Positions 5,162-24,866 are shown, counted from the first letter of the stretch. The stretch is 59,962 bases of DNA from Candidatus Omnitrophota bacterium (GCA_028715965.1 JAQUQS010000004.1:1-59962); one strand, 5' to 3'. Notes: a model not told the origin generated them from the letters alone. Translations and numbers: made by a program.

Positions 5162-5164
5162 ACC

Positions 5165-6292: not shown

Positions 6293-6299
6293 GCCGTTT

Positions 6300-8673: not shown

Positions 8674-8735
8674 TACCTACAATATATTACACATAATAGC
8701 GCTGTTAACCGATGTTTCCCGCGTCAACGCTCTTC

Positions 8736-9103
8736 AAAACCGTTTTTAAAATCAAACCTGGATCTGTCACTGTTTTCACTCTCAAACCTGTACCCGATTT
8801 TGATCTTAGACCTGTACCAGGTTTTGTTCCGAGAGCTGTCCTTCAAGAGCTAAGGCTTTGAGTTTTTATGTAAAAGTGTCTTAGTTGGTGGGTACAGGTT
8901 TAGCTTTGAGAATATAAACGGTTTAACTTTAATAATGGACCAGGTTTGTGTTTGAAGACAAAAATGGTTTTGAGAGTGTATTGTTCCCGGACCGGTACGC
9001 TAAGTGCTAGAAGGTTTTGAGTCTTTATGTAAAAGGATCTTATGGGGTACAGGTCTCTGCTTGATCCTGGGTACAGGTTTAGCTTTTAGAATAGAAACGG
9101 TTT
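8736..9103. repeat. Cluster of short inverted/direct repeats (REP/MITE-like)
   Basis: GGTACAGGT on + at 8891, 9046, 9070 and on - (ACCTGTACC) at 8786, 8810; 35-nt direct repeat 8890-8924 vs 9069-9103 (33/35 identical); 22-nt repeat 8855-8876 vs 9014-9035 (20/22). Confidence 0.75.
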
Positions 9104-9166
9104 TGTGCTTTAAAGTTCCTCTTTACCTATATACTTATAAAAATACTTGTTAATTTTCAATTAAAT

Positions 9167-9194
9167 TTGACTTTTATGGATCCGTTATTATACT
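9167..9194 (+). promoter_or_regulatory. Sigma70-type promoter for the island operon
   Basis: TTGACT-N16-TATACT in an AT-rich stretch upstream of the HTH gene. Confidence 0.5.
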
Positions 9195-9353
9195 CTTTAA
9201 CATATAACAAACAACAATAAGAGGTATAAAAATATAGTCGAACGTATAAAATACAGTAAAATCTATTAGTACAAGTAACCTAACCGGGTGGGGGAAATGT
9301 TACTGTTCTTATTAGATAAAGTCGAATATTTATTCGACTATCTTTGTGTTCAT

Positions 9354-9396
9354 AATCGGCATTTTTTCTTGAATGAGAAAAAATAGCCGATTTTTT
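9354..9396 (+). terminator. Terminator-like hairpin in the 5' leader
   Basis: AATCGGC-ATTTTTTCT / AGAAAAAAT-a-GCCGATT stem followed by a T run, ending 4 nt before the AAGGGGAG RBS. Confidence 0.5.
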
Positions 9397-9413
9397 ATTT
9401 AAGGGGAGCTTAT

Positions 9414-9593
9414 ATGTCGAATACTATGATGACGGTAAAAGATGTGGCGGAATATCTTAAGATGAAGACGGTGACTATCTATAAACACGCCCAGGATGGT
9501 AAGATCCCTGCCTTTAAGGTGGGATCGACCTGGCGGTTCAAGAAAGAAACCATTGATAAGTGGATCGAGGACCAGGAAAAGAATTACAAATAA
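9414..9593 (+). CDS. Small excisionase-like (HTH_17/MerR-like) DNA-binding protein, 59 aa, absent from ORF track
   Basis: Hand translation MSNTMMTVKDVAEYLKMKTVTIYKHAQDGKIPAFKVGSTWRFKKETIDKWIEDQEKNYK; strong RBS AAGGGGAG. Confidence 0.92.
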   Translation: MSNTMMTVKDVAEYLKMKTVTIYKHAQDGKIPAFKVGSTWRFKKETIDKWIEDQEKNYK

Positions 9594-9625
9594 CACATCG
9601 GTTATATAGCGGGATGTAACACATT

Positions 9626-10870
9626 ATGGATAAAAGGATAGTGATAACAGGAGCGGGAGTGCTCGCGTCGAACGGGATAGGATTAAGGGCATTTGCCGGA
9701 TCCCTGAAGAATGGAGTATCGGGTATAAAACCCGTTACTCTTTTCGATACTTCGACCACTAAAAGTAAACTGGCCGGGGAGATATCGGATTTTGACCCCG
9801 CTTCAATTCTGGGGAAAAAAGGCCTGCGGAATCTTGATCGTACGACCCTTTTGGCTATGGCGGCTTCAAAACTAGCAATAGACGACGCGGGACTTTCTGA
9901 CCCGATCGGAGAAGATGTAACGGATCAAGTCGGTGTTTCTCTCGGTTCGACGCTTGGCAGTGTATGGTCTATAAGCGAATTTGATAAAGTCGCTCTAAGG
10001 GAAGGGCCAAGGGCGACCAATCCCGCGCTTTTCCCAAATACCGTAATAAATTCACCAGCAAGTCATATATCTATACGGTTTAACATAAAAGGGTTCAATG
10101 CTACCGTATCGACCGGGTTTTGCGCGAGTCTTGACGCTATCTTTTACGCTTTGAACCAGATGGAGCTTTACGGGTATCATACCGTTCTGGCCGGTGGGGT
10201 AGAGGAGCTGTGTGAACAGACTTATAAAGGTTTTCATAAGATCGGTTATCTTGCCGGGTCACGTGAAGGCAAGGAAGAGGTGAACTGCCCATTCGATAAG
10301 CGCCGTAATGGGATAATCCTGGGGGAAGGCGCTGGAATATTCGTACTTGAGGAACTGGAACACGCTCTTGAACGGAAAGCTCGTGTATACGCCGAAATAA
10401 CGGGTTATGGCACATCGTTCGATCCCAAGTCCCGGAACATATGCAGTCCCAAGGCTGAAGGCGCGTCTCGCGCTATCAAGATGGCCCTGGATGACGCCGA
10501 TATTATGCCGGATGACATAGGGCTTATCTTTTCGACGGCTAATTCGACGCTGGATTGCGATGTCATGGAGGCAAGGGCCATACGGAAAGTCTTCGGTGAT
10601 AGAACGGATACCCTCCCCGTAACCAATATTAAACCTCTTGTAGGCGAGACTTTTTCGGCCAGTGGGGCGATGAATATCGCTGCAGCGCTTGTGGGGACAT
10701 CAGAGGGTTTTATACCCGCCATACGATGTGAGGTAGAAAAGGATAAACGATGTAAGTTGGCGTATTTAACAAAAGTTTCGGATATGCCTTCGGGAGATAT
10801 TCTTATTAATGATTTCGGCCCGACGGGAAATAATTCGGCCATAGTGATGCGGGGGATAAATGCTACTTAA
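9626..10870 (+). CDS. Non-catalytic beta-ketoacyl synthase homologue (chain-length-factor-like)
   Basis: KS fold (RIVITGAG, LGEGAG) but TGFCASL in place of TAC, STANST in place of AHGTGT and LVGETF in place of xGH. Confidence 0.8.
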   Translation: MDKRIVITGAGVLASNGIGLRAFAGSLKNGVSGIKPVTLFDTSTTKSKLAGEISDFDPASILGKKGLRNLDRTTLLAMAASKLAIDDAGLSDPIGEDVTDQVGVSLGSTLGSVWSISEFDKVALREGPRATNPALFPNTVINSPASHISIRFNIKGFNATVSTGFCASLDAIFYALNQMELYGYHTVLAGGVEELCEQTYKGFHKIGYLAGSREGKEEVNCPFDKRRNGIILGEGAGIFVLEELEHALERKARVYAEITGYGTSFDPKSRNICSPKAEGASRAIKMALDDADIMPDDIGLIFSTANSTLDCDVMEARAIRKVFGDRTDTLPVTNIKPLVGETFSASGAMNIAAALVGTSEGFIPAIRCEVEKDKRCKLAYLTKVSDMPSGDILINDFGPTGNNSAIVMRGINAT

Positions 10871-11603
10871 AGATAAAGTCGCTATTATAACAGGTGGTTC
10901 GCGTGGCATAGGCGAGGCTATCGTGCGCGCGTTTGCCGCAGAAGGCGCTGCCGTAGCCTTCAATTATTTGAAAAGCCGGGATAAAGCGGACAAAATATGC
11001 AGGGATATAAACGCCGATGGTGGCAATGCTCTTGCGATAAAAGCGGACGTTAAGGACTTCAAGGCGATGAAGGATATGGTCGATGAGACTAAAAAGGTTT
11101 TTGGGCGCCTGGATGTGGTAGTCAATAACGCTGGGATCCTTCGGGATAAGGCTATGATGCTCATGGAAGAAGAAGATTGGCAGGATGTTATATCGACCAA
11201 TCTTTCCGGTACGTTCAATTTAACCCGTGCCGCCATAGTGACTTTTCTTAAGCAGAAGAGCGGGAACGTTATTAATATAACCTCGGTGGCTGGCCTGGCC
11301 GGGATAGCACGGCAGGTCAATTATTCATCAAGCAAGGCCGGACAGATAGGCCTCACAAAGTCGCTTGCGCGTGAGGTCGGGCCTTATAACATAAGGGTGA
11401 ACGCCATAGCTCCGGGATATACCGCGACGGATATGACCGCGTCATTTGATGACACAATGAAAGAAAAATTGATACAGACCATACCGTTGGGGCGGTTTGG
11501 TAGCGTGGAAGACATCGCTAAATTAGCGCTTTTTCTGGCTTCGAACGATTCGGCTTATATAACGGGCCAGGTTTTTTCTGTTGATGGTGGGTTATATATG
11601 TAA
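10860..11603 (+). CDS. fabG: 3-oxoacyl-ACP reductase
   Basis: TGGSRGIG, NNAG, YSSSK, NAIAPG SDR motifs; overlaps the upstream KS gene by 11 nt. Confidence 0.93.
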   Translation: MLLKDKVAIITGGSRGIGEAIVRAFAAEGAAVAFNYLKSRDKADKICRDINADGGNALAIKADVKDFKAMKDMVDETKKVFGRLDVVVNNAGILRDKAMMLMEEEDWQDVISTNLSGTFNLTRAAIVTFLKQKSGNVINITSVAGLAGIARQVNYSSSKAGQIGLTKSLAREVGPYNIRVNAIAPGYTATDMTASFDDTMKEKLIQTIPLGRFGSVEDIAKLALFLASNDSAYITGQVFSVDGGLYM

Positions 11604-11615
11604 AAAGGAGGAGGG

Positions 11616-11873
11616 ATGCGCTGCATGGTGGACGATAACATTCTCGCGGAAGATCTGAAAAAAATTATATCCGAAGTGATCGAGGCAGATCCTGAAGAAG
11701 TAACGTTAACCGCTAAATTTGTCGAGGATCTGGGCATGGACTCAATGATGGCATTGGAGATACTCGCGGCCATCGAAAAGAAATATGGTATCCAGATACC
11801 TGAAAGTAATTTAGCCAACTTGACCGATCTTCAGGAAGCTATCAAGGTGACAAAAGAATATTTAATTGATTGA
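11616..11873 (+). CDS. Acyl carrier protein
   Basis: DLGMDSM phosphopantetheine site, acidic, 85 aa; RBS GGAGGAGGG. Confidence 0.95.
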   Translation: MRCMVDDNILAEDLKKIISEVIEADPEEVTLTAKFVEDLGMDSMMALEILAAIEKKYGIQIPESNLANLTDLQEAIKVTKEYLID

Positions 11874-13089
11874 GAGCAGGATGAAAAGGCGTGTAGTAAT
11901 AACAGGTCTTGGTATAGTATCGTCGATCGGTATTGGAAAGGATACTTTCTGGAAAAATCTCGTTTCAGGAAGATCTGGTATTACTGATGTCGACAGGTTT
12001 GATGTGTCCAATTTTTCCATAAAAAAAGCCGGGGAGATCAAAGGCTTCAAACCGGATGATTTTATGCCATCAGGCTCAGTTAAAAAAATAGGCAGAGGGT
12101 CTCAGCTAGCCATTGCGGCCACATCGCTGGTTTTTAAAGACGCAGGATTGTCCCCAAATATATTTCGCGAAAAGCGCTCTGGGCTAGTTGTCGGGACAAC
12201 AATGGGTGAGTCGCCTTCGATCGAAATGATCGACAGGTTCTGGACATCCGGGGGAGAAGAAAATGTGTATATGTCCAATGTCGCGAATTTTCCGGTAAAC
12301 AATCTTTCAAACAACATCGGGTTCTCCTTTTCTGTGGCCGGATTGAATTTGGTTGTTCCTACAGCGTGTGCTGCTGGGAATTATTCAATAGGATTCGCGG
12401 CAGATCTGATATCGAGAAATAAATGCGATTTGCTAATAGCTGGTGGTGCCGATCCACTTTCGCGGTTGGCGTTTACGGGTTTTAATAGGTTGTTCGCAAT
12501 GGCGCCGGAAAAGTGCCAACCTTTTGATAAGAACCGGAAAGGTATGATGTTGGGGGAAGGTGCGACAGTTCTTTTAATAGAAGCTCTTGAAAGCGCGAAA
12601 AAACGTAAAGCGCATATTTACGCGGAAATATTGGGATATGGCCTAAGCTGCGACGCGTATAACATGACAATTCCCAATGTGGATGGTATAGAGAAGGTTA
12701 TGAGAAAAGCTTTAATTAACGCAGGGATCGGTCCGGGAGATGTTGACTATATTTCGGCCCATGGAACCGGGACTCCCGCTAATGATAATGCTGAATGCGA
12801 GGCGATACATCGGGTGTTCGGAGCCCATTCCAAAGATCTGGCTGTAAGTTCGATAAAATCCATGTTAGGGCACACCATGGGTACGGCAAGTGCTATTGAA
12901 GCGGCTGCTTGTTGTATGGCTCTGGAGACGGCTATTTTACCTCCAACTATAAATGTAGATGAACAAGACGAGGACTGCGATATTTTTTGTATTCCGAATA
13001 AAGCTGTAAAAAAACAAATTAGGGTAGCCTTGAATAATTCTTTTGCTTTTGGCGGGAATAACGCATGTTTGGTGTTAGGAGTTGTATGA
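11866..13089 (+). CDS. fabF: Beta-ketoacyl-ACP synthase II-like (catalytic Cys-His-His intact)
   Basis: TACAAGN, SAHGTGT, KSMLGH, NSFAFGGNN; start may be ATG at 11881. Confidence 0.9.
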   Translation: MIESRMKRRVVITGLGIVSSIGIGKDTFWKNLVSGRSGITDVDRFDVSNFSIKKAGEIKGFKPDDFMPSGSVKKIGRGSQLAIAATSLVFKDAGLSPNIFREKRSGLVVGTTMGESPSIEMIDRFWTSGGEENVYMSNVANFPVNNLSNNIGFSFSVAGLNLVVPTACAAGNYSIGFAADLISRNKCDLLIAGGADPLSRLAFTGFNRLFAMAPEKCQPFDKNRKGMMLGEGATVLLIEALESAKKRKAHIYAEILGYGLSCDAYNMTIPNVDGIEKVMRKALINAGIGPGDVDYISAHGTGTPANDNAECEAIHRVFGAHSKDLAVSSIKSMLGHTMGTASAIEAAACCMALETAILPPTINVDEQDEDCDIFCIPNKAVKKQIRVALNNSFAFGGNNACLVLGVV

Positions 13090-14504
13090 ATGGGGCGTAT
13101 GATGTGATAGTAGTAGGTGCTGGGATAAGTGGTTTAATTTGTGGAGCGAAATTGTCAAAGGAAGGCTTCAGTGTTCTTGTTCTGGAAAAAAATTCTTACG
13201 CTGGAGGATGCATTTGTGGTGTGCGGAAAAAAGACTTCTATTTTGATTATGGAGCACATCTTTTTGGGAGTTTGAGTGCACACGGTATTTTTAAATACTA
13301 TTTGGACAGTTTGAATGTTAAAGACTTAGATTTTATTCGCATATCGCCAAGTGATAGATATTTTTTTTCAGATGAAAAAGTAGAAATACCTGAAGATTTA
13401 GATGAGTACGTGGAAATGTTAAAAACTAAATTCCCAACAAGTTCTAGGCGAATTAATAGTTTTTTTAGGGAAGTTATACAAATTGCACGAAGCTATTCAT
13501 CTGAAAAAAAATTAAGTAGATTTTACGATTTGAAGTTTATAGACTTGGTCAGAAAACATTTCTCAGACATAAAGTTGATAGGAGTGTTAATGGCTAGCTT
13601 TTCATATCTAGGCATCGCTCCAGGACAACTTGGTGCCACTTCAATGTCTCTCATGATGATTAGTTATCTTCGGGATGGAACATTTTATCCAAAGGGGGGG
13701 ACGCAAGCAATACCAGATGCATTTGTTCGCGGCATTAAGAATACAGGAGGAGAAATTAAGCTTTGTGAGGAAGTGCGGAAAATTTGTATTGTTCGAGATA
13801 ACGTTAAATTAATTACAACATCCAAAAAAAATCAGTATAGTTCAAAAGCTGTAGTAATTGCTTCTGACGTGAGGAGAGCATTTTCGAATATTATAGATTG
13901 CTCCAAACTTCCGGCAGGATACTTGTCTTTCTTGAAAAAGTTAAAGGTTGGGCCATCATTTTTTACTATGTATCTGGGGCTAAATAAAATTAATGATTTA
14001 AGCGAAAAATGTGGGTGGTATCATTCCTCCTATAACTTAGAGGCAAATGACGAATCACCTTTTTATGCGTTCTCGCCTAGCTGTATAGATAACAGCTTGG
14101 TTGCTTCCGATAAAAGCGTACTTCAACTTGCCATGCCATTTTATGAGGAAAATACATCTGAAATAGATTGGGAGAAACGTAAATATATGTTTCAGATTTG
14201 GATATGGAAGAAAATATGTGAAGTCATGCCACATTTGAGAGAACAAGTGCTATACGAAGAGGTCTCGAGTCCTAGTACAATTGAAAAATTTACTTTTAAC
14301 ACAAATGGTTCCATGTGTGGATGGGAGATGAGCCCGCAGTGTATGCATCTGAAAAGGTTGTATAATAAAACACCAATTGAGGGTGTATATTTGGCTGGTC
14401 ATTGGACTAATCCTGGTGGAGGTGTTGCCCCATCGGCTACTTCGGGTTGGATTGCTGCTGAACAAGTTAGAGAATACATTTCATTATTAATGCAAACAAG
14501 GTAA
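13086..14504 (+). CDS. FAD-dependent oxidoreductase, phytoene dehydrogenase/CrtISO/retinol-saturase superfamily
   Basis: VVGAGISG...LEKNSYAGG dinucleotide motif, YPKGGTQ, C-terminal AGHWTNPGGG; ATGA overlap with the fabF stop. Confidence 0.88.
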   Translation: MNGAYDVIVVGAGISGLICGAKLSKEGFSVLVLEKNSYAGGCICGVRKKDFYFDYGAHLFGSLSAHGIFKYYLDSLNVKDLDFIRISPSDRYFFSDEKVEIPEDLDEYVEMLKTKFPTSSRRINSFFREVIQIARSYSSEKKLSRFYDLKFIDLVRKHFSDIKLIGVLMASFSYLGIAPGQLGATSMSLMMISYLRDGTFYPKGGTQAIPDAFVRGIKNTGGEIKLCEEVRKICIVRDNVKLITTSKKNQYSSKAVVIASDVRRAFSNIIDCSKLPAGYLSFLKKLKVGPSFFTMYLGLNKINDLSEKCGWYHSSYNLEANDESPFYAFSPSCIDNSLVASDKSVLQLAMPFYEENTSEIDWEKRKYMFQIWIWKKICEVMPHLREQVLYEEVSSPSTIEKFTFNTNGSMCGWEMSPQCMHLKRLYNKTPIEGVYLAGHWTNPGGGVAPSATSGWIAAEQVREYISLLMQTR

Positions 14505-14512
14505 GGTGATAA

Positions 14513-15826
14513 ATGTATTTAGATATAGAGAAGAGTGAGCGAGACCGAATTGTAATTACTGGAGTAGGACCACTATGTTCTTTGGGCTCTGGGACTAAGC
14601 AAGTATGGGAATCCATAGATAAGGGAAAGCAAAATTTGGTTAAGCATAAACACACAATAGATGACATGGAATTAGGACAGTTTTATCTGCATAAAATTGA
14701 AAACTTTAATCTTGATGATTATGCTTTGCCGAAGGGAAATTATGTTTATGTAAATAGCTTGCGAGGTTTTAGAGACCCTGATGTGGATCTGCATTATTTT
14801 TTAGCCGCAGTTAAATTAGCATTAGAAGACAGTGGCTATGACTATGATTTAAAAGAAAACAAAGTCGGGCTTGTTCTTGCGCACGAGAATCCTGGGATGG
14901 AATCTTTGTTTGAAGATATAACGAAAAGTGCATACGAGATTTTCAAAAAATCTAAACAAAACGACAAATTAGATTTTATTCACGAATTATATGACGATTG
15001 TGAAGAGTCGGGATATAGTCTTCAGACGTTTACGTATTTGTACTCAGTTGCAAAAGTATTTGATTTGCACGGGTACTCTCTGTTTATAAATAATGCGTGT
15101 GCTTCAGGGCTCTTTGCAATCGAAGCGGCTGCCCGTAACATTAGAAGTGGCTTGAACACGGCAACGGTTGTTGCGGCGATAGATTCGCCCCTAAAAATTT
15201 ATAAATATATGTGGTTTAAAAAGCTAGGTTTATATAACGATGAAGATGGTAAAATGAAGCCATTTTCAAAAAAGGCAAATGGAGTTGTTTTTGGTGATGG
15301 AGGCGCTGCGCTGATATTGGAAACGTTAGAAAGTGCAAAAAAGCGAGGTGCTACAATTTATGCAGAGTATTTAGGTGGTGGGTTTTGCTTAGAGGGGTGG
15401 AAAATCACAGTACCAGATATCACAAGTAATTATTATGAAAAAGCCTTTGAGGAAGCGATTTACCGTTCTGGCATCAAAGCAAATAGCATTGATTTAGTTA
15501 ATCCACATGGAGTTGGGTTAAAAGTTACAGATTTATACGAAACCAGAACAATACAACGTGTACTTTCACAAAGAAGTGCTATGGTAAGTGCTTTTAAGCC
15601 ATTAGTTGGCCATAATTTGGGAGGAAGTGCTTTGTTGGAAACAGTGATAGGGCTTTTAGCGATGCAACATCAAACTGTACCGGCAACGTTGAATTGCGAG
15701 GATGTCATTGATGGGTGCGATCTGAATATTATTAAAAACAATAAAAAGGCTAAAATCGAAACGTTCGCAAAAATGGCCATAGGTTTTGCTGGATACAATG
15801 CAGTTGGTATATTCAGAAAGGTATAA
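14513..15826 (+). CDS. Divergent beta-ketoacyl synthase (catalytic triad retained)
   Basis: NNACASG, NPHG, KPLVGH, FGDGGAA; atypical N-terminal half (AHENPG). Confidence 0.85.
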   Translation: MYLDIEKSERDRIVITGVGPLCSLGSGTKQVWESIDKGKQNLVKHKHTIDDMELGQFYLHKIENFNLDDYALPKGNYVYVNSLRGFRDPDVDLHYFLAAVKLALEDSGYDYDLKENKVGLVLAHENPGMESLFEDITKSAYEIFKKSKQNDKLDFIHELYDDCEESGYSLQTFTYLYSVAKVFDLHGYSLFINNACASGLFAIEAAARNIRSGLNTATVVAAIDSPLKIYKYMWFKKLGLYNDEDGKMKPFSKKANGVVFGDGGAALILETLESAKKRGATIYAEYLGGGFCLEGWKITVPDITSNYYEKAFEEAIYRSGIKANSIDLVNPHGVGLKVTDLYETRTIQRVLSQRSAMVSAFKPLVGHNLGGSALLETVIGLLAMQHQTVPATLNCEDVIDGCDLNIIKNNKKAKIETFAKMAIGFAGYNAVGIFRKV

Positions 15827-15841
15827 TTAGCTGATTTGCAG

Positions 15842-16408
15842 ATGAAAAATGTAGTTATTTTGAACACATTGGATAATAACGCAAATAGTATGCATATGAC
15901 TATTGTTGACAAACTCAACAAAGTTCTTTCGCTGGAAAAATGCGATGTGCAGCATTACAAGATTCAGGATTTACATATAATGTCATGTGTAGGATGTTTT
16001 GGGTGCTGGGTTAAAACGCCTGGAATGTGTAGCATAGTTGATGATTCAAATGATATTATCAATGCTATCAAAAAGACGAATTATCTTGTCCTGCTCTCTA
16101 CTATAATGTTTGGTAGCTATTCGTCTGACATGAAAAAGATTATTGATAGATTAGCGCCACTTGCAGAACCGTTTTTTAGGCAAATAGATGGTATAACACA
16201 ACATGTGCCGAGAATTAATAGAGAAGTAAGGATTATAGCAATAGGTGTTAATGATACTGGACAGGATAAATATGGTGATGTATTTTCCTTGCTTGTTGAA
16301 AAAAATGCCCAAAATTTTTTTAATTCACGACATATTTGTCTTGTTTATAAAAGTTCGGTGGGGTGTAAAGGACTAGGGGATAAAATCTTATCTTTTATGC
16401 GGGGTTGA
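15842..16408 (+). CDS. Flavodoxin-fold / iron-sulfur flavoprotein-like protein
   Basis: SCVGCFGCWVKTPGMC cysteine motif and FGSYSSDMKKIIDR. Confidence 0.8.
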   Translation: MKNVVILNTLDNNANSMHMTIVDKLNKVLSLEKCDVQHYKIQDLHIMSCVGCFGCWVKTPGMCSIVDDSNDIINAIKKTNYLVLLSTIMFGSYSSDMKKIIDRLAPLAEPFFRQIDGITQHVPRINREVRIIAIGVNDTGQDKYGDVFSLLVEKNAQNFFNSRHICLVYKSSVGCKGLGDKILSFMRG

Positions 16409-16414
16409 GTTAAT

Positions 16415-17062
16415 ATGAGTACTCAAATTTTAATATTAATTGGTAGCCCAAAGAAGAAGGATAGTACATCAGAATCAATTGCTACTAAATTAAAATTAAT
16501 TTTGGGAGAGCAAGGAGCATGTGTACATGTCATGTCATTGTTTTTAAGTCTAAATGATAGCGAGAATATTGATAAATTTTTCAAAAAAATAAATTCAGTA
16601 GATATCATTACATTTATATCGCCGGTATATGTTGATTCTCCGCCTTTTATGGTTTTAAAATTTCTTGAAATTATTAGTGAAAAAAGCAAAACTCTTAATA
16701 ATGAAAAATGCAAAAAAATTTTTGCTATTTCACTCTGTGGCTATCCCGAAGCTGTTCACAACGAGCTTTCTTTAATGATTTATAAAAACTTTGCGGATTG
16801 TTGTGGTTTTTTGTGGGGAGGAGGAATGTCGATAAGCATGGCACCATTTATTAGGCAGGATCATATAAGGTATATTGGTGTTAAAAATCAAAATTTACTG
16901 CATTCGTATGAGATGTTGTGCAGGAAGATGTTAAGTGTGGAGGATGAAATTGATGATGAATGCATAGAAGTTGCTCCAATATTACCCAAGTGGCTATATT
17001 TGTCAATCGCCCACATAGCATGGTATTGCTCTTATGTTAGAAATGTTCTTAAAAGAGGCTAA
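16415..17062 (+). CDS. Flavodoxin-fold NAD(P)H-dependent oxidoreductase
   Basis: IGSPKKKDSTS FMN loop, SPVYVDSPP, CGYPE. Confidence 0.78.
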   Translation: MSTQILILIGSPKKKDSTSESIATKLKLILGEQGACVHVMSLFLSLNDSENIDKFFKKINSVDIITFISPVYVDSPPFMVLKFLEIISEKSKTLNNEKCKKIFAISLCGYPEAVHNELSLMIYKNFADCCGFLWGGGMSISMAPFIRQDHIRYIGVKNQNLLHSYEMLCRKMLSVEDEIDDECIEVAPILPKWLYLSIAHIAWYCSYVRNVLKRG

Positions 17063-17071
17063 CAGTAAAAC

Positions 17072-19228
17072 ATGGCTGGCTTAATATTCACAATATCAAA
17101 TTGTATAGTTTGGGTCACATGTATTATTCTTATCATAATACTCTTTGTATATGGTAAGAAAAAAGTTCACTACATGTGGGCATATTTTAATTTTGTGGGT
17201 GGCCTATGGGGATTAGGTGGTTTTTTAGTTGGTTTGTCCAAAGCCCCAACTGTTGCTATGATATCGTGGAAAATCGCATTGATAGGGTCCATATTTTCTC
17301 CAATTGTGTTCTATCATATGATAACTGTGTTAGGCGATTTGAATCGCAAGAAAATATTGTATATTTTTTACGCTTTTGGTATGTTTTTCTACCTTTTAAC
17401 ACTATTTGACTTTCTTGATTTATCAATAACACGGATTCATGATTCTTTGTTTTATGTAAAAGCGACAAATTACAAATGGGGACTTTTGGTGTCAATCTGG
17501 GGAATGATAGTCGCTTGTGCAATTGTAGAGCTATTTGTGTTGCTTAAGCAATCTACAGGAGCAAAGCGTACCCAGTATCAATTTATTTTTATAGGTTTTG
17601 TGGCAGCATTTTCTGGGGCAATATTAGATACCTTGCCCATGTGGGGATTAAACTTCCTGCCAGCGGCAAATTTGTTGATTTCGTTTTATTGTGTACTAGT
17701 GACGTATGCTATTTTGAGGCATAATTTGCTCGACATTGAAGTTATTATCAAAAAAACACTCGTATTTGCGGGTCTTTTCATTTTTGCGTATACGGTATTT
17801 GCGACTTTTGCATATATAGGTACAACATTTTTGGAAAACGTTGTTAATAATAGGTGGATAGCTATGATGCCATCAGTATTTATCGTTGTAATGTTATTGC
17901 GGCCATTAGAAAGCTTTCTCCGAAATATAACTGACAAATACCTATTTCAAAAACAGTATGACTCAAAACAGTTATTAAAGCTGTTCGCGAATGAGGTGTT
18001 ATCGGTTCTTGATATTAACCGTCTAGTGAATTTGACTGTGAATAGGCTTGTCGATTTTATGAAATTGGAAAATGCTTATATAATGTTGTTGGATGAGAAT
18101 AGGGAGATGTTTCGCGTTGTGGCATTCAGCGGAATGAGTCCTTCAAAATGGCATTTGGACGCCCAAAAAGAGTTTTTTGCCTATTTGCAGGTTACAGGAA
18201 AATATCTCCTTTTGGATGACCCTGCCAGAAAAAATATATTAAACCCATCGATAGTGTCTGTCATGGCGGATGAAAGATCAGTTTTAGCTATTCCTCTCTT
18301 TCATCGAAATGAAATGGTAGGGGTCTTGTTTCTCGGGAAGAAAAAATCGGATGAGATCTTTAACCAGGAAGATATTGATATCCTCTTGCCGTTGTCCCGC
18401 ACATTATCGATAGCCATAACGAACGCGCAGCTTTTTGAAAAGCTGTCTCAGGCACAGGCGCAGGCCGCCCAGCGGGAAAAGATGGCGGTTATTGGTACGC
18501 TCTCGGCCGGGATAAACCATGAGATATGTAATCCCCTGGGGATAGCGCGGGGGCAGTGCGAAATGTTCCTTCTCAACATGCAGGACGGTTTGTACGCCAC
18601 CAAATCTACGGGTGAACTTTTGGAGCAGGCCAAAGTGATAATGGAAAAGGTCATAAAAGAGACAGACAGGGCGACCGTTATAACGAAGAAATTGTCTTCA
18701 TTCGCGAAGCCGGCCAAAGGGGAAATAACCAATGATGTCAACGCCGAGAAAGAGATAGATGAAGTAATGACGCTCGTGGAACATGATCTCAAGTTGGATA
18801 ATATAGTCATAACCAAGAGGGTGGAGGGCGATATCCCGGCGATATCCGCCGACAGGAAACAGCTCCAGGAGATACTTTTTAATATCGTGCGTAACGCGGC
18901 GCAGGCCATGGGACAGCGTGGGACCATTGAGATATCGGTTTACGCGCGGTTCGGGGAAGTCTACATCGACATTACGGATACAGGTGAGGGGATAAGCAAA
19001 CAGGACCAGGCGCGCATTTTCGATCCATTCTTCACGACAAAAGAACCGGGTAAAGGTACGGGATTGGGCCTTTTCATAGTGAAGCAGATCGTGGAAAGGA
19101 ATAACGGCCGGATCTTTGTTAAAAGCGAATCCGGCAGTGGGACCACGTTCACGCTTGTTTTTAAGGCTTTTGATAGCAGTGATGTGAATGAACATGACAA
19201 TATAGGCGTGAGAGAAAATAACGCGTAA
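17072..19228 (+). CDS. Sensor histidine kinase HK0: multi-TM (HisKA_7TM-like) sensor, GAF, HisKA, HATPase
   Basis: About 7+ hydrophobic helices, GAF (IPLFHRNEMVGVLFLGKK), H-box INHEICNPL, N box NAAQA, DTGEG, FFTTK, GTGLGL. Confidence 0.93.
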   Translation: MAGLIFTISNCIVWVTCIILIIILFVYGKKKVHYMWAYFNFVGGLWGLGGFLVGLSKAPTVAMISWKIALIGSIFSPIVFYHMITVLGDLNRKKILYIFYAFGMFFYLLTLFDFLDLSITRIHDSLFYVKATNYKWGLLVSIWGMIVACAIVELFVLLKQSTGAKRTQYQFIFIGFVAAFSGAILDTLPMWGLNFLPAANLLISFYCVLVTYAILRHNLLDIEVIIKKTLVFAGLFIFAYTVFATFAYIGTTFLENVVNNRWIAMMPSVFIVVMLLRPLESFLRNITDKYLFQKQYDSKQLLKLFANEVLSVLDINRLVNLTVNRLVDFMKLENAYIMLLDENREMFRVVAFSGMSPSKWHLDAQKEFFAYLQVTGKYLLLDDPARKNILNPSIVSVMADERSVLAIPLFHRNEMVGVLFLGKKKSDEIFNQEDIDILLPLSRTLSIAITNAQLFEKLSQAQAQAAQREKMAVIGTLSAGINHEICNPLGIARGQCEMFLLNMQDGLYATKSTGELLEQAKVIMEKVIKETDRATVITKKLSSFAKPAKGEITNDVNAEKEIDEVMTLVEHDLKLDNIVITKRVEGDIPAISADRKQLQEILFNIVRNAAQAMGQRGTIEISVYARFGEVYIDITDTGEGISKQDQARIFDPFFTTKEPGKGTGLGLFIVKQIVERNNGRIFVKSESGSGTTFTLVFKAFDSSDVNEHDNIGVRENNA

Positions 19229-19249
19229 ATATCGGGGTATTTCATTAAT

Positions 19250-19651
19250 ATGGGGGGAGGCAAGGTGGATAAACCAAAGATACTTTCGGTGGATGATGAA
19301 GCGAATTTCACCGATATGCTTAAACAGTACTTTGAGCCGAGGGGCTACGAGATCGATACGGCGTCTAACGGGGAAACGGGCATCGAAATGCTGAAACTTA
19401 AGAAATATGACGTGGCACTTCTGGACTTCAAGATGGTAGGGCTTAACGGGGACGAAGTTATGGGGTGCATTAAGGATGTTTCTCCCGGTACGACTATAAT
19501 CTTTATCACCGCCTTCAGTGATTCCGGGAAGACCAGGCAGTCCCTTATAGACAAAGGCGCTTACGCGTTCATGGAAAAACCTGTTGCCAGCCTCAAGAAT
19601 CTCGAGGAATTGGTGAACCAGGCCGCTAACACCGTAAGGAGGAGTGAATAA
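19250..19651 (+). CDS. Stand-alone response regulator receiver
   Basis: VDDE, LLDFKM, ITAF, MEKP; no output domain. Confidence 0.92.
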   Translation: MGGGKVDKPKILSVDDEANFTDMLKQYFEPRGYEIDTASNGETGIEMLKLKKYDVALLDFKMVGLNGDEVMGCIKDVSPGTTIIFITAFSDSGKTRQSLIDKGAYAFMEKPVASLKNLEELVNQAANTVRRSE

Positions 19652-20033
19652 TATGCTAAAATTACTTGTTGTCGATGACGAAGTGGACATCTGTGATTTT
19701 GTAAGAAGTTTCTTCAAGGAACGTAATTTTGAGGTATTTGTCGCATACAACGGCAAGAAGGCCATCGAGACCATTGAGAAGGAAAAACCGGATATCGTGC
19801 TTCTCGATATGAATATGCCCGGAATGACCGGACTTGAAGCGCTTCGGGAGCTTCGGCAGCAAGGCAACCAGATAAAAACTATCATGGTGACCGCCGTCGA
19901 CGAGCCGGATAAGATCGAGGAAGCGAAAAAACATGGTGTGGTGGAGTATATAACGAAACCGCTGCTTTTAGAGCAGCTTGAACGTACGGTTTTTACCGTG
20001 GCGGAACAGATAAGGATGGATAGCGCAAAATAA
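19644..20033 (+). CDS. Stand-alone response regulator receiver
   Basis: VDDE, LLDMNMPGMTG, VTAV, ITKP; no output domain. Confidence 0.93.
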   Translation: MNNMLKLLVVDDEVDICDFVRSFFKERNFEVFVAYNGKKAIETIEKEKPDIVLLDMNMPGMTGLEALRELRQQGNQIKTIMVTAVDEPDKIEEAKKHGVVEYITKPLLLEQLERTVFTVAEQIRMDSAK

Positions 20034-20061
20034 CGGTTCGGCTGAAAGGGGAGAGGGAGAA

Positions 20062-21384
20062 ATGGCTTACTCAGATAGCTGGCAGAGGTTGCAGGACTGG
20101 ACGGTCGAGAAGATAAAGAACTGCGACGGGGCCCTTATACCAATGGACAGGGACAGTATAAGGCAGCGGCAGGAACCCGAGCTCGATTACCAGTTCATGC
20201 TTGAGGCGGCGTCGCGTACCATGATACGCTTCAAGAAGCCCGAAAGGCTTATAAGGATGATAGTCCGGGTAATGGATGAGCAGGTGAAGGTAACGCATAC
20301 TGCTATGCTTCTCAGGAAAGACGCATCCGGGCCTTTCACCCTGATAGACAGTAAGGGCGCGGAAGGAGTCAAGATACCGGTCGGGTTCATTAAGCTTACC
20401 GACGAGAATTCGCTTATACGCCTTTTTAACGAACGCCATAATTACAAAATGTCGGAATCCGGGTCGGTTGGGTACAAGGACCTCTTGAATTTCCTTCAGC
20501 GAGACCCGGCGACCAAGTCCGATAGCGACCTGAAATCCATAGTTGAAATGGCCATCAAGCAGATGGAGCTTTTAAAGGCGACTTTATGCGTGCCGGTATA
20601 TTATAAAAAAGACCTTATCGGCGTACTTATATTGGGGAAAAAGCTCTCGAATGTGAAGTTCTCAAGGCAGGAAATAGGGTTCTTTACGACATTGGCCAAC
20701 GACGTAGCGATGGCGCTTTCGAACGCGCAGCTGATACAGGACCTCCAGGATAAAATATTCGAGGTGCATAATCTCTATGAAAGGGAGCATAGCCTGTTCA
20801 TACATACCGCGATATCTCTTGCCGCCGCTATCGACGCCAGGGACCCGTATACACACGGCCATACCGAGCGTGTGACGCAATACGCTCTAAGCATAGCCGA
20901 AGAGCTCCAGGAGCTTCCGGAAGCAGCGGAATACGCTAATTTCAAGGAAACGCTGCATATTTCCGGCCTTTTGCATGATGTCGGGAAGATAGGCGTGCCG
21001 GATGGCATTCTCAATAAAAAGAGCAGCCTTACGGACGACGAGTATGAAAAGCTCAAGGAGCATTCAGTTACGGGAGCGGCTATACTTTATCCGATACGTG
21101 AGCTCGGCGATGTGGCGCGTGAGGTCCGGTGCCATCATGAACGATGGGATGGGAAAGGATACCCTGACGGGTTGAAAGGCGAGGAAATACCGTTCATTTC
21201 GCGTATAATATCCGTCGCGGATACGTTTGACGCGATAACGAGCGACAGGCCGTATAGACAGAAAAAAATGGCGGAAGTAGCCATACAGATCATCAAGGAT
21301 AATTCTGGCAGCCAGTTCGATCCCATAGTGGTAAGCGCTTTTCTGCTGGCGCATCGGAAAGGCAAATTTGGTAACGTGTCATGA
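20062..21384 (+). CDS. GAF + HD-GYP cyclic-dinucleotide phosphodiesterase
   Basis: DPYTHGHTERV, LLHDVGKIG, HHERWDGKGYP, DAITSDRPYR; upstream GAF; no REC domain. Confidence 0.93.
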   Translation: MAYSDSWQRLQDWTVEKIKNCDGALIPMDRDSIRQRQEPELDYQFMLEAASRTMIRFKKPERLIRMIVRVMDEQVKVTHTAMLLRKDASGPFTLIDSKGAEGVKIPVGFIKLTDENSLIRLFNERHNYKMSESGSVGYKDLLNFLQRDPATKSDSDLKSIVEMAIKQMELLKATLCVPVYYKKDLIGVLILGKKLSNVKFSRQEIGFFTTLANDVAMALSNAQLIQDLQDKIFEVHNLYEREHSLFIHTAISLAAAIDARDPYTHGHTERVTQYALSIAEELQELPEAAEYANFKETLHISGLLHDVGKIGVPDGILNKKSSLTDDEYEKLKEHSVTGAAILYPIRELGDVAREVRCHHERWDGKGYPDGLKGEEIPFISRIISVADTFDAITSDRPYRQKKMAEVAIQIIKDNSGSQFDPIVVSAFLLAHRKGKFGNVS

Positions 21385-23259: not shown

Positions 23260-23260
23260 A

Positions 23261-24853: not shown

Positions 24854-24866
24854 GGGTAAAGGAATA

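What the first reader, a model, noticed from the sequence alone, without database searches (positions are those of the whole stretch)
11900..18300. AT-rich swappable cassette spans the tailoring enzymes and only the sensor half of HK0 (agr-like co-variation)
Seen: composition falls from FabF onward and recovers inside HK0 around the GAF/H-box. Hand counts of 60-nt lines give 37/60 GC at 10441, 15/60 at 13501, 18/60 at 16441 and 32/60 at 18481. The low-GC part includes soluble enzymes, so TM codon bias alone does not explain it. Known: in the staphylococcal agr locus, the hypervariable block covers the signal-making genes plus the receptor's sensor domain, with conserved flanks. Inference: signal-specifying enzymes and the cognate sensor are exchanged together as one specificity cassette by recombination in conserved flanks.
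Basis: partly seen in the sequence, partly recalled or inferred. Interest (0 to 1): 0.78.

Follow-up and report, generated by a model that had tools for sequence, protein, structure and literature searches.

The report
Swappable lipid-enzyme and sensor cassette
In an uncultured Omnitrophota bacterium, an AT-rich stretch covering lipid-tailoring enzyme genes and the membrane-sensor part of a histidine kinase is the exchangeable input module of an otherwise conserved signalling operon; relatives swap it by recombination, as happens in strain-specific bacterial pheromone systems, but here the chemistry is lipid-type, not peptide.

Summary
Observation confirmed. GC falls to 0.33-0.40 (GC3 0.31) from the 3' end of fabF (~12.9 kb) to codon ~415 of kinase HK0 (18.3 kb). 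GC3 is 0.47 to the left and 0.60 to the right. Neither TM codon bias nor site conservation explains the dip.

About 105 related Omnitrophota loci show what it is: the exchangeable input module of a conserved operon. KS/CLF-FabG-ACP-FabF and GAF-kinase core-REC-REC-HD-GYP evolve together. The 7TM sensor and the enzyme genes just upstream get replaced. Pairs with 82-99.7% identical flanks carry unalignable sensors and different enzymes. The right-hand junction always lies at the motif TYAIxRHxLxDIEVIIKKTL (HK0 residues ~211-231).

The window's own HK0 is such a chimera (AU p=0.0002). Sensor similarity follows the upstream gene, not the kinase core (Mantel p=0.0005). Across the phylum both run ~0.2 below host GC3.

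The cassette model is supported, with corrections:
- The recurrent junction is at the end of the 7TM, not the GAF/H-box.
- Enzyme-sensor linkage is loose and the left edge varies.
- No alternative allele was found for this organism itself.
- The signal-receptor function is inferred, not shown.

The parts
8674..9625 (+). AT-rich, repeat-bearing leader region upstream of the operon, with a 59-aa HTH_17 gene at 9414-9593
   Evidence: GC 0.37. Direct repeats D5/D6. HTH_17 at 62.5 bits. An HTH_17 gene also precedes KS1 in L084, L089 and L091. GCA_028710465.1 has one extra 227-bp unit here.
9626..10870 (+). KS1: ketosynthase homologue without catalytic triad (CLF-like); conserved left flank
   Evidence: Pfam ketoacyl-synt N+C. 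F/N/E at the Cys/His/His positions. 62-67% identical in cluster-bearing relatives and co-varies with the kinase core, r=0.81.
10860..11603 (+). FabG-type ketoreductase; conserved left flank
   Evidence: adh_short_C2 at 231 bits. 56-67% identical in relatives.
11616..11873 (+). Dedicated acyl carrier protein; conserved left flank
   Evidence: PP-binding.
11866..13089 (+). FabF-type active ketosynthase. Its 3' end holds the left composition border (12888; interval 12558-12981) and, in L022/L027, the left recombination junction
   Evidence: Triad intact. Change point. L022/L027 similarity ends at the fabF end. FabF type goes with cassette type.
13065..14504 (+). AmOx: CrtI/phytoene-desaturase-family flavoenzyme; variable tailoring gene, GC3 0.31
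   Evidence: PF01593 at 97 bits. TIGR02734 at 126 bits, below cut-off. 23-33% identical to most relatives, and its distances are uncorrelated with the core, r=0.02. Best hits anywhere are 41-47%.
14513..15826 (+). KS3: third ketosynthase, triad intact, present in only some relatives; GC3 0.32
   Evidence: All seven loci with the window-type sensor carry it.
15836..17062 (+). Two flavodoxin-like / FMN-reductase-like genes (15836-16408 and 16415-17062); variable tailoring genes, GC3 0.30 and 0.28
   Evidence: Weak PF03358/PF02525 matches. Present as two genes in L018, L027 and L030 and as one fused gene in L002, L086 and L091.
17072..17701 (+). HK0 7TM sensor module (residues 1-210), the exchanged part of the kinase; GC3 ~0.34
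   Evidence: In the sensor tree it forms a clade with group S (SH-aLRT 100). The AU test rejects that clade for the rest of the protein, p=0.00017. Identity to relatives is 26-51% and is uncorrelated with the core.
17702..17779 (+). Juxtamembrane motif TYAILRHNLLDIEVIIKKTLVFAGLF (residues 211-236): the recurrent recombination junction
   Evidence: Similarity between relatives resumes at residues 211-222 in L082/83, L022/27, L038/50, L037/61, L020/22 and L102/103/105. In the window the affinity switch is at residue ~231. The same motif ends the sensors of HK1-HK4.
17780..18316 (+). HK0 linker and GAF domain (residues ~237-415): follows the kinase core phylogenetically but is still AT-rich here (GC3 ~0.38)
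   Evidence: Closer to group K, like the core. GAF co-varies with the core, r=0.65. Its GC3 deficit of ~0.21 compares with a phylum mean of 0.065. The right composition border is at 18316 (18307-18334).
18317..19228 (+). HK0 H-box and ATPase core; conserved right flank, GC3 ~0.60
   Evidence: HisKA/HATPase_c. 58-73% identical to relatives.
19250..21384 (+). Two single-domain receivers (19250-19651 and 19644-20033) and a GAF-HD-GYP protein (20062-21384); conserved right flank
   Evidence: Present behind HK0 homologues in nearly all loci. Co-vary with the core, r 0.69-0.72.
21381..26474 (+). HK1, HK2 and HK3: tandem GAF-less 7TM kinases with 81-87% identical cytoplasmic parts and 28-35% identical sensors. 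Each sensor best matches the sensor of a cluster-linked HK0-type kinase of another genome
   Evidence: HK1 to L020 50%; HK2 to L004 62%; HK3 to L049/L015 48%. A 157-nt exact repeat 24588-24744 = 26203-26359. Low GC3 in the sensors only.
22969..23259 (+). Remnant of the last ~85 codons of an AmOx-family gene, abutting the HK2 start: a footprint of an imported [AmOx'-sensor] segment
   Evidence: Matches AmOx genes that end just before HK0-type starts. L004 scores best (48% identity, E 3e-21; L021 and L042 are 49-50% at slightly weaker E), against 30% to the window's own AmOx. L004 also holds the best match of the HK2 sensor.
26477..28075 (-). HK4: convergent GAF-less 7TM kinase with the same AT-rich sensor and GC-richer core pattern
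   Evidence: Kinases in the same position occur in L005, L007, L015 and others.

Best explanation
The AT-rich block is the exchangeable input module of a conserved Omnitrophota signalling operon.

Layout. The operon reads: [HTH_17] - KS/CLF pair, ketoreductase and ACP (a type II fatty-acid/polyketide-like core) - variable tailoring enzymes - 7TM sensor fused in frame to a conserved GAF-kinase core - two receivers - a GAF-HD-GYP phosphodiesterase.

Shown. The flanks are inherited together. The 7TM sensor and the enzyme gene or genes just upstream are repeatedly replaced by recombination. The right crossover almost always lies at the conserved juxtamembrane motif (HK0 residues ~211-231). The left crossover lies at the fabF 3' end or further left. 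The window's own HK0 is such a chimera. Across the phylum, sensor and upstream gene share a composition about 0.2 lower in GC3 than their hosts, and it tracks host composition only weakly.

Inferred. In this lineage the most recent imported tract ran from the fabF 3' end to just before the H-box. That would explain why the AT-rich block ends at codon 415 rather than at the module junction. The enzymes tailor an acyl-ACP-derived lipid. The 7TM domain senses that lipid or close analogues in the membrane. The kinase passes the signal through the receivers to HD-GYP and so to c-di-GMP. Exchanging enzyme and sensor together changes signal and receptor specificity at once, as in pherotype systems. 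HK1-HK4 would then be extra receptors carrying sensor types that other lineages use as their cluster-linked sensor.
For: Composition.

Shared history of the flanks against decoupled sensor and AmOx. KS1, FabG, FabF, HK0 linker, GAF, core, RR1, RR2 and HD-GYP pairwise identities correlate at r 0.47-0.84 (Mantel p=0.0005). TM against any of them is r -0.09 to 0.03, and AmOx against core is 0.02.

Natural replacement pairs with the same junction: L082/L083 (99.67% nt over 4524 nt; sensor 19% aa), L022/L027, L038/L050 (L050 is a closed chromosome), L037/L061, L020/L022 and L102/L103/L105.

Enzyme-sensor linkage. TM against AmOx gives r=0.27, p=0.001. Identity of the immediately upstream gene predicts sensor identity (0.24 rising to 0.43) while core identity stays flat at 0.64-0.66; Mantel r=0.17, p=0.0005. 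The AmOx remnant and the HK2 sensor both best match L004. Both testable loci with the window-type AmOx carry the window-type sensor, which only 14 of 113 homologues have. L102, L103 and L105 carry a methyltransferase, an acyl-AMP ligase tail and a radical SAM enzyme, each with an unrelated sensor.

Chimeric HK0 in the window.

Common composition of sensor and upstream gene. Slopes on host GC3 are 0.32 and 0.29, and deficits are -0.196 and -0.201 (p about 1e-12). GAF has slope 0.81 and downstream genes 0.90.

Operon-like packing, with gaps of -65 to +28 nt.

Every lineage has some lipid or redox enzyme directly upstream of HK0.
Against: - No product, ligand or phosphorylation data exist, so the signal-receptor pairing rests on linkage and analogy.
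- Linkage is weak at depth. Pairs with similar AmOx can have dissimilar sensors (L020/L022 AmOx 62%, TM 30%; L027/L086 60% against 26%). L101 and L102 share a 54% sensor but have different upstream enzymes. Physical proximity alone would give some co-variation.
- The window's composition border (codon 415) does not coincide with the module junction. The proposed longer recent tract is not demonstrated, because the linker and GAF have the same nearest relatives as the core.
- No same-species alternative allele was found for this organism. Nothing is closer than 73% in the kinase core (66% over the whole cytoplasmic part) or 78% in HD-GYP, and the four runs show no variant.
- Most loci come from metagenome bins.
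- The groups used in the AU test were named after the identities had been seen.
Confidence: 0.6

Rival explanations
1. The evolutionary process is the same, but there is no self-made signal. The enzymes remodel the cell's own membrane lipids, as the related anammox cluster is thought to do. The 7TM kinase monitors membrane state or an external or host lipid. Enzymes and sensor are replaced together only because they lie side by side.
For: The conserved core resembles the anammox membrane-lipid cluster: ACP, FabF, triad-less FabF and a phytoene-desaturase homologue. Enzyme-sensor co-variation is weak (r 0.17-0.27) and has counter-examples. Many sensors sit on kinases with no adjacent enzyme genes (HK1, HK3, HK4).
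Against: More than ten unrelated enzyme families occupy the position directly upstream of the sensor in different lineages, always in the same orientation and tightly packed. Chance adjacency does not predict this. The sensor and the upstream gene share one compositional behaviour. A homeostatic sensor would be expected to be conserved, not hypervariable.
Confidence: 0.25
2. There is no exchange. The sensor and the tailoring genes evolve very fast in place under relaxed or diversifying selection, and AT-biased mutation lowers their GC3.
For: The sensor and AmOx are the least conserved parts. Bins of the cytoplasmic part show a positive relation between conservation and GC3 (rho 0.58).
Against: Sequences change stepwise from 99.2-99.7% DNA identity to unalignable at one fixed codon. 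Gene content differs between near-identical flanks. The sensor tree and the cytoplasmic tree conflict with full support and the AU test rejects congruence. Sensors of HK1-3 are closer to sensors in other genomes than to each other, although their cores are 81-87% identical. At the site level GC3 does not follow conservation.
Confidence: 0.05
3. A single horizontally acquired AT-rich biosynthetic island happens to abut a kinase whose membrane part is AT-rich for unrelated reasons. There is no cassette.
For: All five 7TM kinases of the window have AT-rich sensors whether or not enzymes lie next to them. The closest relatives by HD-GYP and MiaB mostly lack the KS cluster.
Against: The AT-rich block does not coincide with the biosynthetic cluster: it starts at the fabF 3' end, not at KS1. 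The same trough from fabF to the sensor recurs in many lineages with different host GC. Housekeeping TM segments are not AT-rich. The sensor and its neighbour co-vary.
Confidence: 0.05
4. The discordances are artefacts: chimeric metagenome contigs joined at the conserved motif.
For: Most loci are from MAGs. The motif DNA is identical over ~30 nt between species. GCA_028710465.1 breaks inside HK0 at 18524.
Against: The window's junction lies inside unbroken k=31-based contigs of two runs, with no differences. In L022/L027 both flanks return to 85-90% identity, which would need two coincident misjoins. L050 is a closed chromosome. The pattern recurs with MEGAHIT, SPAdes and other assemblies from many studies. 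Chimeras would not give the composition regularities.
Confidence: 0.03

Closest known systems
comQXPA pherotype locus of Bacillus subtilis
   Same: The polymorphic block covers the signal-modifying enzyme gene, the signal gene and the N-terminal membrane sensor of the kinase ComP, while the cytoplasmic kinase part and the regulator stay conserved. This produces groups that communicate within but not between (PMC4008528, PMC4408185). Here too the border lies inside the kinase gene, at the membrane/cytoplasm transition.
   Different: The ComX signal is a ribosomal, isoprenylated peptide, ComQ is an isoprenyl transferase and ComA is a DNA-binding regulator. Here there is no peptide gene. The enzymes are of fatty-acid/polyketide type. 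The kinase has a HisKA_7TM sensor plus GAF. The output is two bare receivers and an HD-GYP protein. Exchange is seen between species across a phylum, and functional specificity groups have not been shown.
agr locus of staphylococci (hypervariable agrB 3' part - agrD - agrC 5' part)
   Different: No AgrB, AgrD, HPK10-type AgrC or LytTR regulator is present. The chemistry is lipid-type, not thiolactone peptide. Enzyme content, not only allele sequence, differs between cassettes.
Rpf/DSF system of Xanthomonas (RpfF, RpfC, RpfG)
   Same: A fatty-acid-derived signal is sensed by the membrane part of a histidine kinase and relayed to an HD-GYP c-di-GMP phosphodiesterase (PMC5391125; bioRxiv 10.1101/2022.01.03.474871).
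   Different: No RpfF-type crotonase. HK0 is not a hybrid kinase. HD-GYP carries a GAF domain rather than a receiver, and the receivers are separate proteins. Rpf is not known for cassette-like sensor exchange.
Anammox candidate ladderane cluster kuste3603-3608 (amxACP, FabZ, FabF, triad-less FabF, phytoene-desaturase homologue, radical SAM)
   Same: A dedicated ACP, an active FabF plus a FabF homologue without a catalytic triad, and a CrtI-family flavoenzyme in one cluster. In anammox the two FabF homologues form a KS/CLF-like heterodimer (PMC4790861, PMC2649909, bioRxiv 10.64898/2026.05.19.726425). Several relatives of the window locus also carry a FabA/ApeI-like dehydratase.
   Different: The window's operon has no radical SAM enzyme. 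It carries a third ketosynthase and flavodoxin-like proteins. It is fused into an operon with a sensor kinase. Orthology to the anammox proteins was not tested here.
Lipid autoinducer pairs with membrane-sensor kinases (CqsA/CqsS of Vibrio; PhcB/PhcS of Ralstonia)
   Same: One or a few enzymes convert a fatty-acyl precursor into a hydrophobic signal that a polytopic kinase reads (PMC11960443 for PhcS; CqsS from own knowledge). Some relatives here have only a methyltransferase upstream of the sensor, as in PhcB.
   Different: The enzyme and kinase families differ, and no polymorphic cassette structure has been described for those systems.

Membership tests
Polymorphic pheromone ('pherotype') loci of the agr / comQXPA kind | The variable block covers the signal-making gene(s) plus the membrane sensor part of the kinase, while the kinase core and regulators are conserved | tested here: met
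   The junction is at HK residues ~211-231.
Polymorphic pheromone ('pherotype') loci of the agr / comQXPA kind | Discrete alternative alleles segregate within one species | tested here: inconclusive
   L082/L083 (99.67% nt) and L102/L103 (99.2% nt) have flanks in the same-species range but are short metagenome contigs. For the window's own organism there was no variant in four runs and no close relative in any collection.
Polymorphic pheromone ('pherotype') loci of the agr / comQXPA kind | The signal is a ribosomal peptide processed by AgrB or ComQ | tested here: not met
   No such domains among the operon's proteins. The enzymes are ketosynthases, a ketoreductase, an ACP, a CrtI-family flavoenzyme and flavodoxin-like proteins.
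Polymorphic pheromone ('pherotype') loci of the agr / comQXPA kind | Allele-specific activation and cross-inhibition between groups | not testable with these tools
   Needs chemistry and genetics.
Rpf/DSF signalling | An RpfF-type enoyl-CoA hydratase (crotonase) synthase | tested here: not met
   No crotonase-family match in any gene of 9414-21384.
Rpf/DSF signalling | A hybrid sensor kinase (REC and HPt) and a REC-HD-GYP regulator | tested here: not met
   HK0 is 7TM-GAF-HisKA-HATPase. There are two stand-alone REC proteins, and HD-GYP carries a partial GAF domain and no REC.
KS/CLF type II fatty-acid/polyketide-like core (as in the anammox kuste3603-3608 cluster) | An active ketosynthase plus a homologue lacking the Cys-His-His triad, with a dedicated ACP | tested here: met
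   FabF has TACAAG / HGTGT / GHT. KS1 has F, N and E at these positions. ACP PP-binding. Heterodimer formation was not tested.
KS/CLF type II fatty-acid/polyketide-like core (as in the anammox kuste3603-3608 cluster) | A phytoene-desaturase-family enzyme in the cluster | tested here: met
   PF01593 at 97 bits. TIGR02734 at 126 bits, below its 238-bit cut-off: a family-level match only.
KS/CLF type II fatty-acid/polyketide-like core (as in the anammox kuste3603-3608 cluster) | A radical SAM enzyme and a FabZ-type dehydratase in the cluster | tested here: not met
   Neither is present in window 9414-17062. A FabA/ApeI-like dehydratase is present in L084, L086, L087, L089 and L091. A radical SAM gene lies upstream of the sensor only in L105.
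HisKA_7TM sensor kinases (Pfam PF16927) | The N-terminal 7TM region matches the family model above its gathering score | tested here: inconclusive
   HK0 scores 25.6 bits against a cut-off of 28.6. HK2 scores 67.9 and HK3 44.4, both passing. Most HK0 homologues carry a precomputed PF16927 hit.

The most novel reading that the evidence does not exclude
Omnitrophota possess a phylum-wide, polymorphic lipid-based communication system. A conserved chassis (KS/CLF-KR-ACP on one side, GAF-kinase-REC-REC-HD-GYP on the other) accepts interchangeable cassettes of one to six lipid-tailoring enzymes plus a matched 7TM receptor. The cassettes are drawn from an AT-rich pool shared between species and are spliced at one fixed juxtamembrane motif. 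Each cassette defines a signal/receptor specificity (a pherotype). The tandem GAF-less kinases (HK1-HK4), which carry sensor types that other lineages use as their cluster-linked receptor, let a cell listen to foreign pherotypes.
Probability: 0.3. Interest if true: 0.88.

Novelty: new variant of a known kind. Interest (0 to 1): 0.78.

Why it matters
Polymorphic signal-plus-receptor cassettes are known almost only from peptide pheromones of Firmicutes (agr, comQXP, com/blp). This locus shows the same evolutionary logic built from fatty-acid/polyketide enzymes and a 7TM-GAF kinase feeding c-di-GMP turnover. It occurs in an uncultured phylum of very small, possibly host-dependent bacteria, and exchange happens between species at one fixed splice point.

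If the functional reading holds, it would add a new chemical class of strain- or lineage-specific signals. It would also supply a natural set of matched enzyme/receptor pairs for finding ligands of the uncharacterised HisKA_7TM sensors, and a defined junction for engineering sensor-swap kinases.

Even on the evolutionary evidence alone, the locus is a clear case of domain-level recombination inside a kinase gene. It also shows that a composition step inside a gene can mark such events.

Tried and rejected
- No whole-genome background or own-genome paralogue search was possible, so the window's 22 other genes served as background.
- P0002, the exact C-terminal fragment of HK0 on a 149-kb contig, is not on record for a contig look-up.
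- A first test of chimerism compared cluster-bearing with cluster-less genome loci. It was uninformative because all sensors were about 30% identical. The signal appeared only with the wider protein set.
- Read laying found no strain variant and no alternative joint at either border. It found only short 85-95% pieces from other organisms on the conserved flanks.
- Promoter and terminator scans gave no excess over shuffles.
- TM codon bias and conservation-linked codon choice were tested as explanations of the low GC3 and rejected.
- The metagenome scan with HD-GYP found no relative closer than 78%.
- The search for closer AmOx relatives found none above 47%, so no donor could be named.
- Literature searches found no description of this locus in Omnitrophota.

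Full report
**1. What the window is.**
All genes around the finding lie on the + strand. FtsK, RodZ, MiaB, PgsA and PgpA (2948-8673) are followed by a 952-nt AT-rich repeat-bearing spacer with a small HTH_17 gene (9414-9593).

A tightly packed row follows, with gaps of -65 to +28 nt:
- KS1 9626-10870
- FabG 10860-11603
- ACP 11616-11873
- FabF 11866-13089
- a CrtI-family flavoenzyme, 'AmOx', 13065-14504
- a third ketosynthase, KS3, 14513-15826
- two flavodoxin-like proteins, 15836-17062
- the 7TM-GAF histidine kinase HK0, 17072-19228
- two single-domain receivers
- a GAF-HD-GYP protein, 20062-21384
- three more 7TM kinases, HK1-HK3, plus a convergent one, HK4

. FabF and KS3 keep the Cys-His-His triad. 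KS1 has lost all three residues and is CLF-like. HK0 homologues are named Candidatus Omnitrophota. The sequence is 100% identical to GCA_028710465.1 contig JAQTUB010000003.1 apart from one extra 227-bp repeat unit near 9137-9263. That contig ends at window 18524, inside HK0.

**2. The observation.**
GC drops to 0.33-0.40 between ~12.5 and 18 kb, and the drop is as strong at third codon positions:

| Genes | GC3 |
|---|---|
| Housekeeping and downstream signalling genes | 0.58-0.61 |
| KS1 to FabF | 0.41-0.51 |
| The four tailoring genes | 0.28-0.32 |
| HK0 up to residue 280 | ~0.34 |
| HK0 residues 281-400 | ~0.44 |
| HK0 beyond residue 400 | 0.55-0.66 |

. A two-change-point fit places the borders at 12888 (12558-12981) and 18316 (18307-18334), a gain of 110 lnL units.

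TM codon bias is not the cause. TM-like codons of 22 other genes have GC3 0.575 against 0.590, and sensor loops are as AT-rich as helices. Codon choice at conserved sites is not the cause either. Within each part of HK0 the site-wise correlation of GC3 with conservation is about 0, and the highly conserved residues 211-300 have GC3 0.27-0.37.

The stretch is continuous in independent k=31-based contigs of two landfill-metagenome runs (11392-19041 and 11382-18004, no differences), so it is not an assembly chimera.

One qualification stands out: all five 7TM kinases of the window show the same low-GC3 sensor and high-GC3 core.

**3. Relatives: conserved chassis, variable middle.**
I collected 80 genome loci, 14 metagenome loci and 11 contigs found through individual proteins.

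HK0-REC-REC-HD-GYP is present almost everywhere. About a quarter of the loci have KS1-FabG-ACP-FabF upstream at 56-67% identity. Between FabF and the kinase the gene content differs: AmOx alone; AmOx+KS3; KS3 plus flavodoxin-like genes; added ferredoxins and FabA/ApeI-like dehydratases; AmOx sometimes downstream of the kinase.

Lineages without the KS cluster, including those closest to the window by MiaB and HD-GYP, still have an enzyme gene directly upstream of HK0. The families differ: acyl reductase (NAD_binding_4) plus GMC oxidoreductase, aldehyde dehydrogenase plus GMC, SRPBCC plus a Shikimate_DH-like protein plus GMC, HMG-CoA reductase, methyltransferases, an acyl-AMP ligase, a radical SAM enzyme, or a fused flavodoxin. 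At least ten classes of immediate neighbour were found.

**4. Which parts share a history.**
Pairwise identities of KS1, FabG, FabF, the HK0 linker, GAF, the kinase core, both receivers and HD-GYP correlate with one another (Spearman 0.47-0.84; Mantel p=0.0005). The 7TM sensor (residues 1-215) correlates with none of them (-0.09 to 0.03; p>0.35). AmOx does not correlate with the core (0.02). The sensor correlates with AmOx (0.27, p=0.001) and perhaps KS3 (0.32, p=0.055).

A sharper test uses the identity of the gene immediately upstream of HK0. It predicts sensor identity:

| Upstream-gene identity | Mean sensor identity |
|---|---|
| Not homologous | 0.24 |
| 45-60% | 0.37 |
| Above 60% | 0.43 |

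Kinase-core identity stays at 0.64-0.66 throughout. Mantel r=0.17, p=0.0005, against r=0.05 for the core.

**5. Natural replacement experiments and the junction.**

| Pair | Right of junction | Left of junction |
|---|---|---|
| L082/L083 | 99.67% nt over 4524 nt, from HK residue ~216-220 through REC-REC-HD-GYP | Sensor 19% aa; AmOx 30%; KS3 present in one only; FabF 59% aa / 69.5% nt |
| L022/L027 | HK from residue ~215 82%; REC-REC-HD-GYP 89.7% | KS1-FabF 85-88.5% nt; unalignable between fabF end and junction except KS3 at 68.5% |
| L102/L103 | 99.2% nt; cytoplasmic parts 98% aa | Sensors 32%; methyltransferase against an acyl-AMP ligase tail |
| L105, same series | ~91% nt, 93% aa | Third sensor (22-33%) behind a radical SAM gene |

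L038/L050 (L050 is a closed chromosome), L037/L061 and L020/L022 behave alike.

In every pair similarity resumes at residues 211-222. In L082/L083 the crossover lies within the codons for TYAI-RH-L-DIEVIIKKTL. The same motif ends the sensors of HK1-HK4.

**6. The window's own kinase is a chimera.**
Residues 1-~225 are closest to group S (P0003-P0014; 43-51%). From residue ~231 on, the protein is closer to group K (P0013, P0015, P0016 and others; cores 69-73%). In the sensor tree the window plus group S form a clade (SH-aLRT 100). In the cytoplasmic tree a fully supported split places the window with group K. The AU test rejects window+S (delta lnL 220, p=0.00017). The groups were named after the identities had been seen.

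Enzymes go partly with the sensor:
- All seven loci with the S-type sensor carry KS3.
- The window's FabF falls in a fully supported clade made up of KS3-bearing loci. The L051/L056 pair, which also carries KS3, lies outside it.
- L083, which has AmOx only, has the other FabF type.
- The window's rare AmOx subtype (best hits 41-47%) occurs in L087 and L091, next to S-type sensors. Only 14 of 113 homologues have such a sensor.

**7. A footprint inside the window.**
ORF 22969-23259, abutting the HK2 start, contains the last ~85 residues of an AmOx-family protein. Its strongest matches are AmOx genes that end just before HK0-type starts in other genomes: L004 scores best (48% identity, E 3e-21), with L021 and L042 at 49-50% and slightly weaker E-values. 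It is only 30% identical to the window's own AmOx.

The HK2 sensor also finds its best match in L004 (62%), in the kinase right behind that AmOx. The AmOx tail and the sensor therefore arrived as one piece of DNA.

HK1, HK2 and HK3 have 81-87% identical cytoplasmic parts, with a 157-nt exact repeat, but 28-35% identical sensors. Each sensor is closest to the cluster-linked HK0-type sensor of some other genome (HK1 to L020 50%; HK3 to L049/L015 48%). This verifies earlier notes e1-5219562 and e1-5219561.

**8. Composition across the phylum.**
In 92% of 74 loci the sensor has lower GC3 than the kinase core. Regression on host GC3 (core plus downstream genes):

| Segment | Slope | Mean deficit | p |
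|---|---|---|---|
| 7TM sensor | 0.32 | -0.196 | 2e-12 |
| Immediately upstream gene | 0.29 | -0.201 | 4e-12 |
| Linker+GAF | 0.81 | -0.065 | 8e-10 |
| Downstream genes against core | 0.90 | - | - |

. The fabF-to-sensor trough recurs in L020, L022, L027, L033, L042, L056, L087, L089 and L091. So the sensor and its neighbour form one compositionally distinct unit that only weakly follows the host.

Two processes could produce this, and they were not separated here. The modules may circulate in an AT-rich pool, or GC-biased gene conversion may be absent where alleles are too different to recombine.

**9. Why the composition border is at codon 415.**
The window's linker+GAF (residues ~232-415) belongs phylogenetically with the core but has a GC3 deficit of ~0.21, three times the phylum mean. 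The right end of the AT-rich tract differs between lineages:
- at the TM/GAF transition in L007, L003 and L027
- after GAF in L056, L069, L071, L076 and the window
- not before HD-GYP in L005 and L016

My inference is that the last import into this lineage was a longer tract from an AT-richer relative of the same chassis clade. Its crossovers would lie in the fabF 3' end and just before the H-box, the most conserved DNA of the gene. This is plausible but not demonstrated.

**10. Mechanism and function.**
Shown:
- modular replacement by recombination at a fixed in-frame junction
- co-transfer of neighbouring enzyme genes in several events
- operon-like packing

Inferred: the enzymes tailor an acyl-ACP-derived lipid made by the KS/CLF-KR-ACP core. 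The 7TM domain reads that lipid. The kinase signals through the receivers to HD-GYP and c-di-GMP. Exchange of enzyme plus sensor resets specificity.

The main rival keeps the evolution but denies the self-signal, proposing membrane-lipid remodelling plus an unrelated lipid or membrane sensor. The weak and imperfect co-variation leaves that open.

**11. Comparison with what is known.**
The evolutionary pattern is that of comQXPA and agr (PMC4008528, PMC4408185). The locus fails their defining molecular features: no peptide, no AgrB/ComQ, a different kinase and different regulators.

The lipid-to-HD-GYP logic recalls Rpf/DSF (PMC5391125), but RpfF, a hybrid RpfC and a REC-HD-GYP are absent.

The left flank plus AmOx resembles the anammox kuste3603-3608 cluster (PMC4790861, PMC2649909, bioRxiv 10.64898/2026.05.19.726425).

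No paper describing this Omnitrophota locus was found. Earlier AI notes of this scan describe the same kind of locus in another Omnitrophota genome (e1-825476) and analogous enzyme-plus-sensor swaps in other phyla. They agree with this reading but are not independent evidence.

**12. Limits.**
- No same-species relative of the window organism exists in any collection searched.
- Most loci are metagenome-derived.
- Identity-based Mantel tests are weakened by saturation of sensor identities near 24%.
- No experiment bears on function.

**Verdict.** Observation confirmed. Interpretation supported in its evolutionary core, with the corrections given above. New variant of a known kind. Interest 0.78.

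Noticed in passing
window 9137-9263 (and L001 1839-2192): The public assembly GCA_028710465.1 is identical to the window except for one extra 227-bp unit in the AT-rich repeat region upstream of KS1. A 127-nt stretch is matched twice. This is either a copy-number difference or a k=127 assembly effect.
   Followed up: partly
window 18524: Contig JAQTUB010000003.1 of GCA_028710465.1 ends inside HK0 at the H-box (…SAGINHE). A second exact fragment of HK0 (P0002, from Met274) is on record from a 149-kb contig that could not be fetched. Logan contigs run through this point without a break.
   Followed up: partly
window 24588-24744 and 26203-26359: A 157-nt exact repeat in the kinase cores of HK2 and HK3. 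The cores of HK1-3 are 81-87% identical while the sensors are 28-35% identical, which suggests gene conversion between the cores.
   Followed up: partly
window 22969-23259: The start of this ORF (MNAFTFSGF) resembles the HK1 start (MNAFALSGF), and the ORF then continues into an AmOx-family C-terminus. HK1's 3' end overlaps it by 32 nt. It looks like a scar of a recombination that joined a kinase start to an oxidoreductase tail.
   Followed up: partly
window 9626-10870: KS1 has Phe, Asn and Glu at the Cys-His-His positions of ketosynthases, with a Cys one residue after the Phe. Together with the intact FabF it looks like a KS/CLF pair, as described for anammox amxFabF2/amxFabFmut.
   Followed up: partly
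window 41000-42000 and 51000-52500: Two further GC dips (0.41-0.44) outside the signalling region. They were not examined.
   Followed up: no
L027 12175-13600; L086 8041-9450: In these relatives the AmOx gene lies downstream of the kinase, between HK and the first receiver, rather than upstream. Cassette gene order is therefore not fixed.
   Followed up: no
L005 8475-9971; L007 8556-9986; L003 558-1696: A ~480-aa protein with no Pfam match over its full length but a methyltransferase-like C-terminal half (split in L003) sits directly upstream of HK0 in several lineages that lack the KS cluster. It may correspond to the methyltransferase fusion mentioned in note e1-825476.
   Followed up: no
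L044, L061, L067 (record titles): Contigs carrying typical Omnitrophota-type loci are filed under Margulisiibacteriota, Rhodocyclaceae and WOR-3 bins. L044 is identical to part of L045. This is probably mis-binning, although transfer is not excluded.
   Followed up: no
L005, L015, L016 (whole HK0-REC-REC-HD-GYP): In these close relatives the whole signalling module (GC3 0.33-0.53), not only the sensor, is AT-richer than the neighbouring MiaB/PgsA (0.56-0.59). This suggests that larger tracts are sometimes replaced.
   Followed up: no
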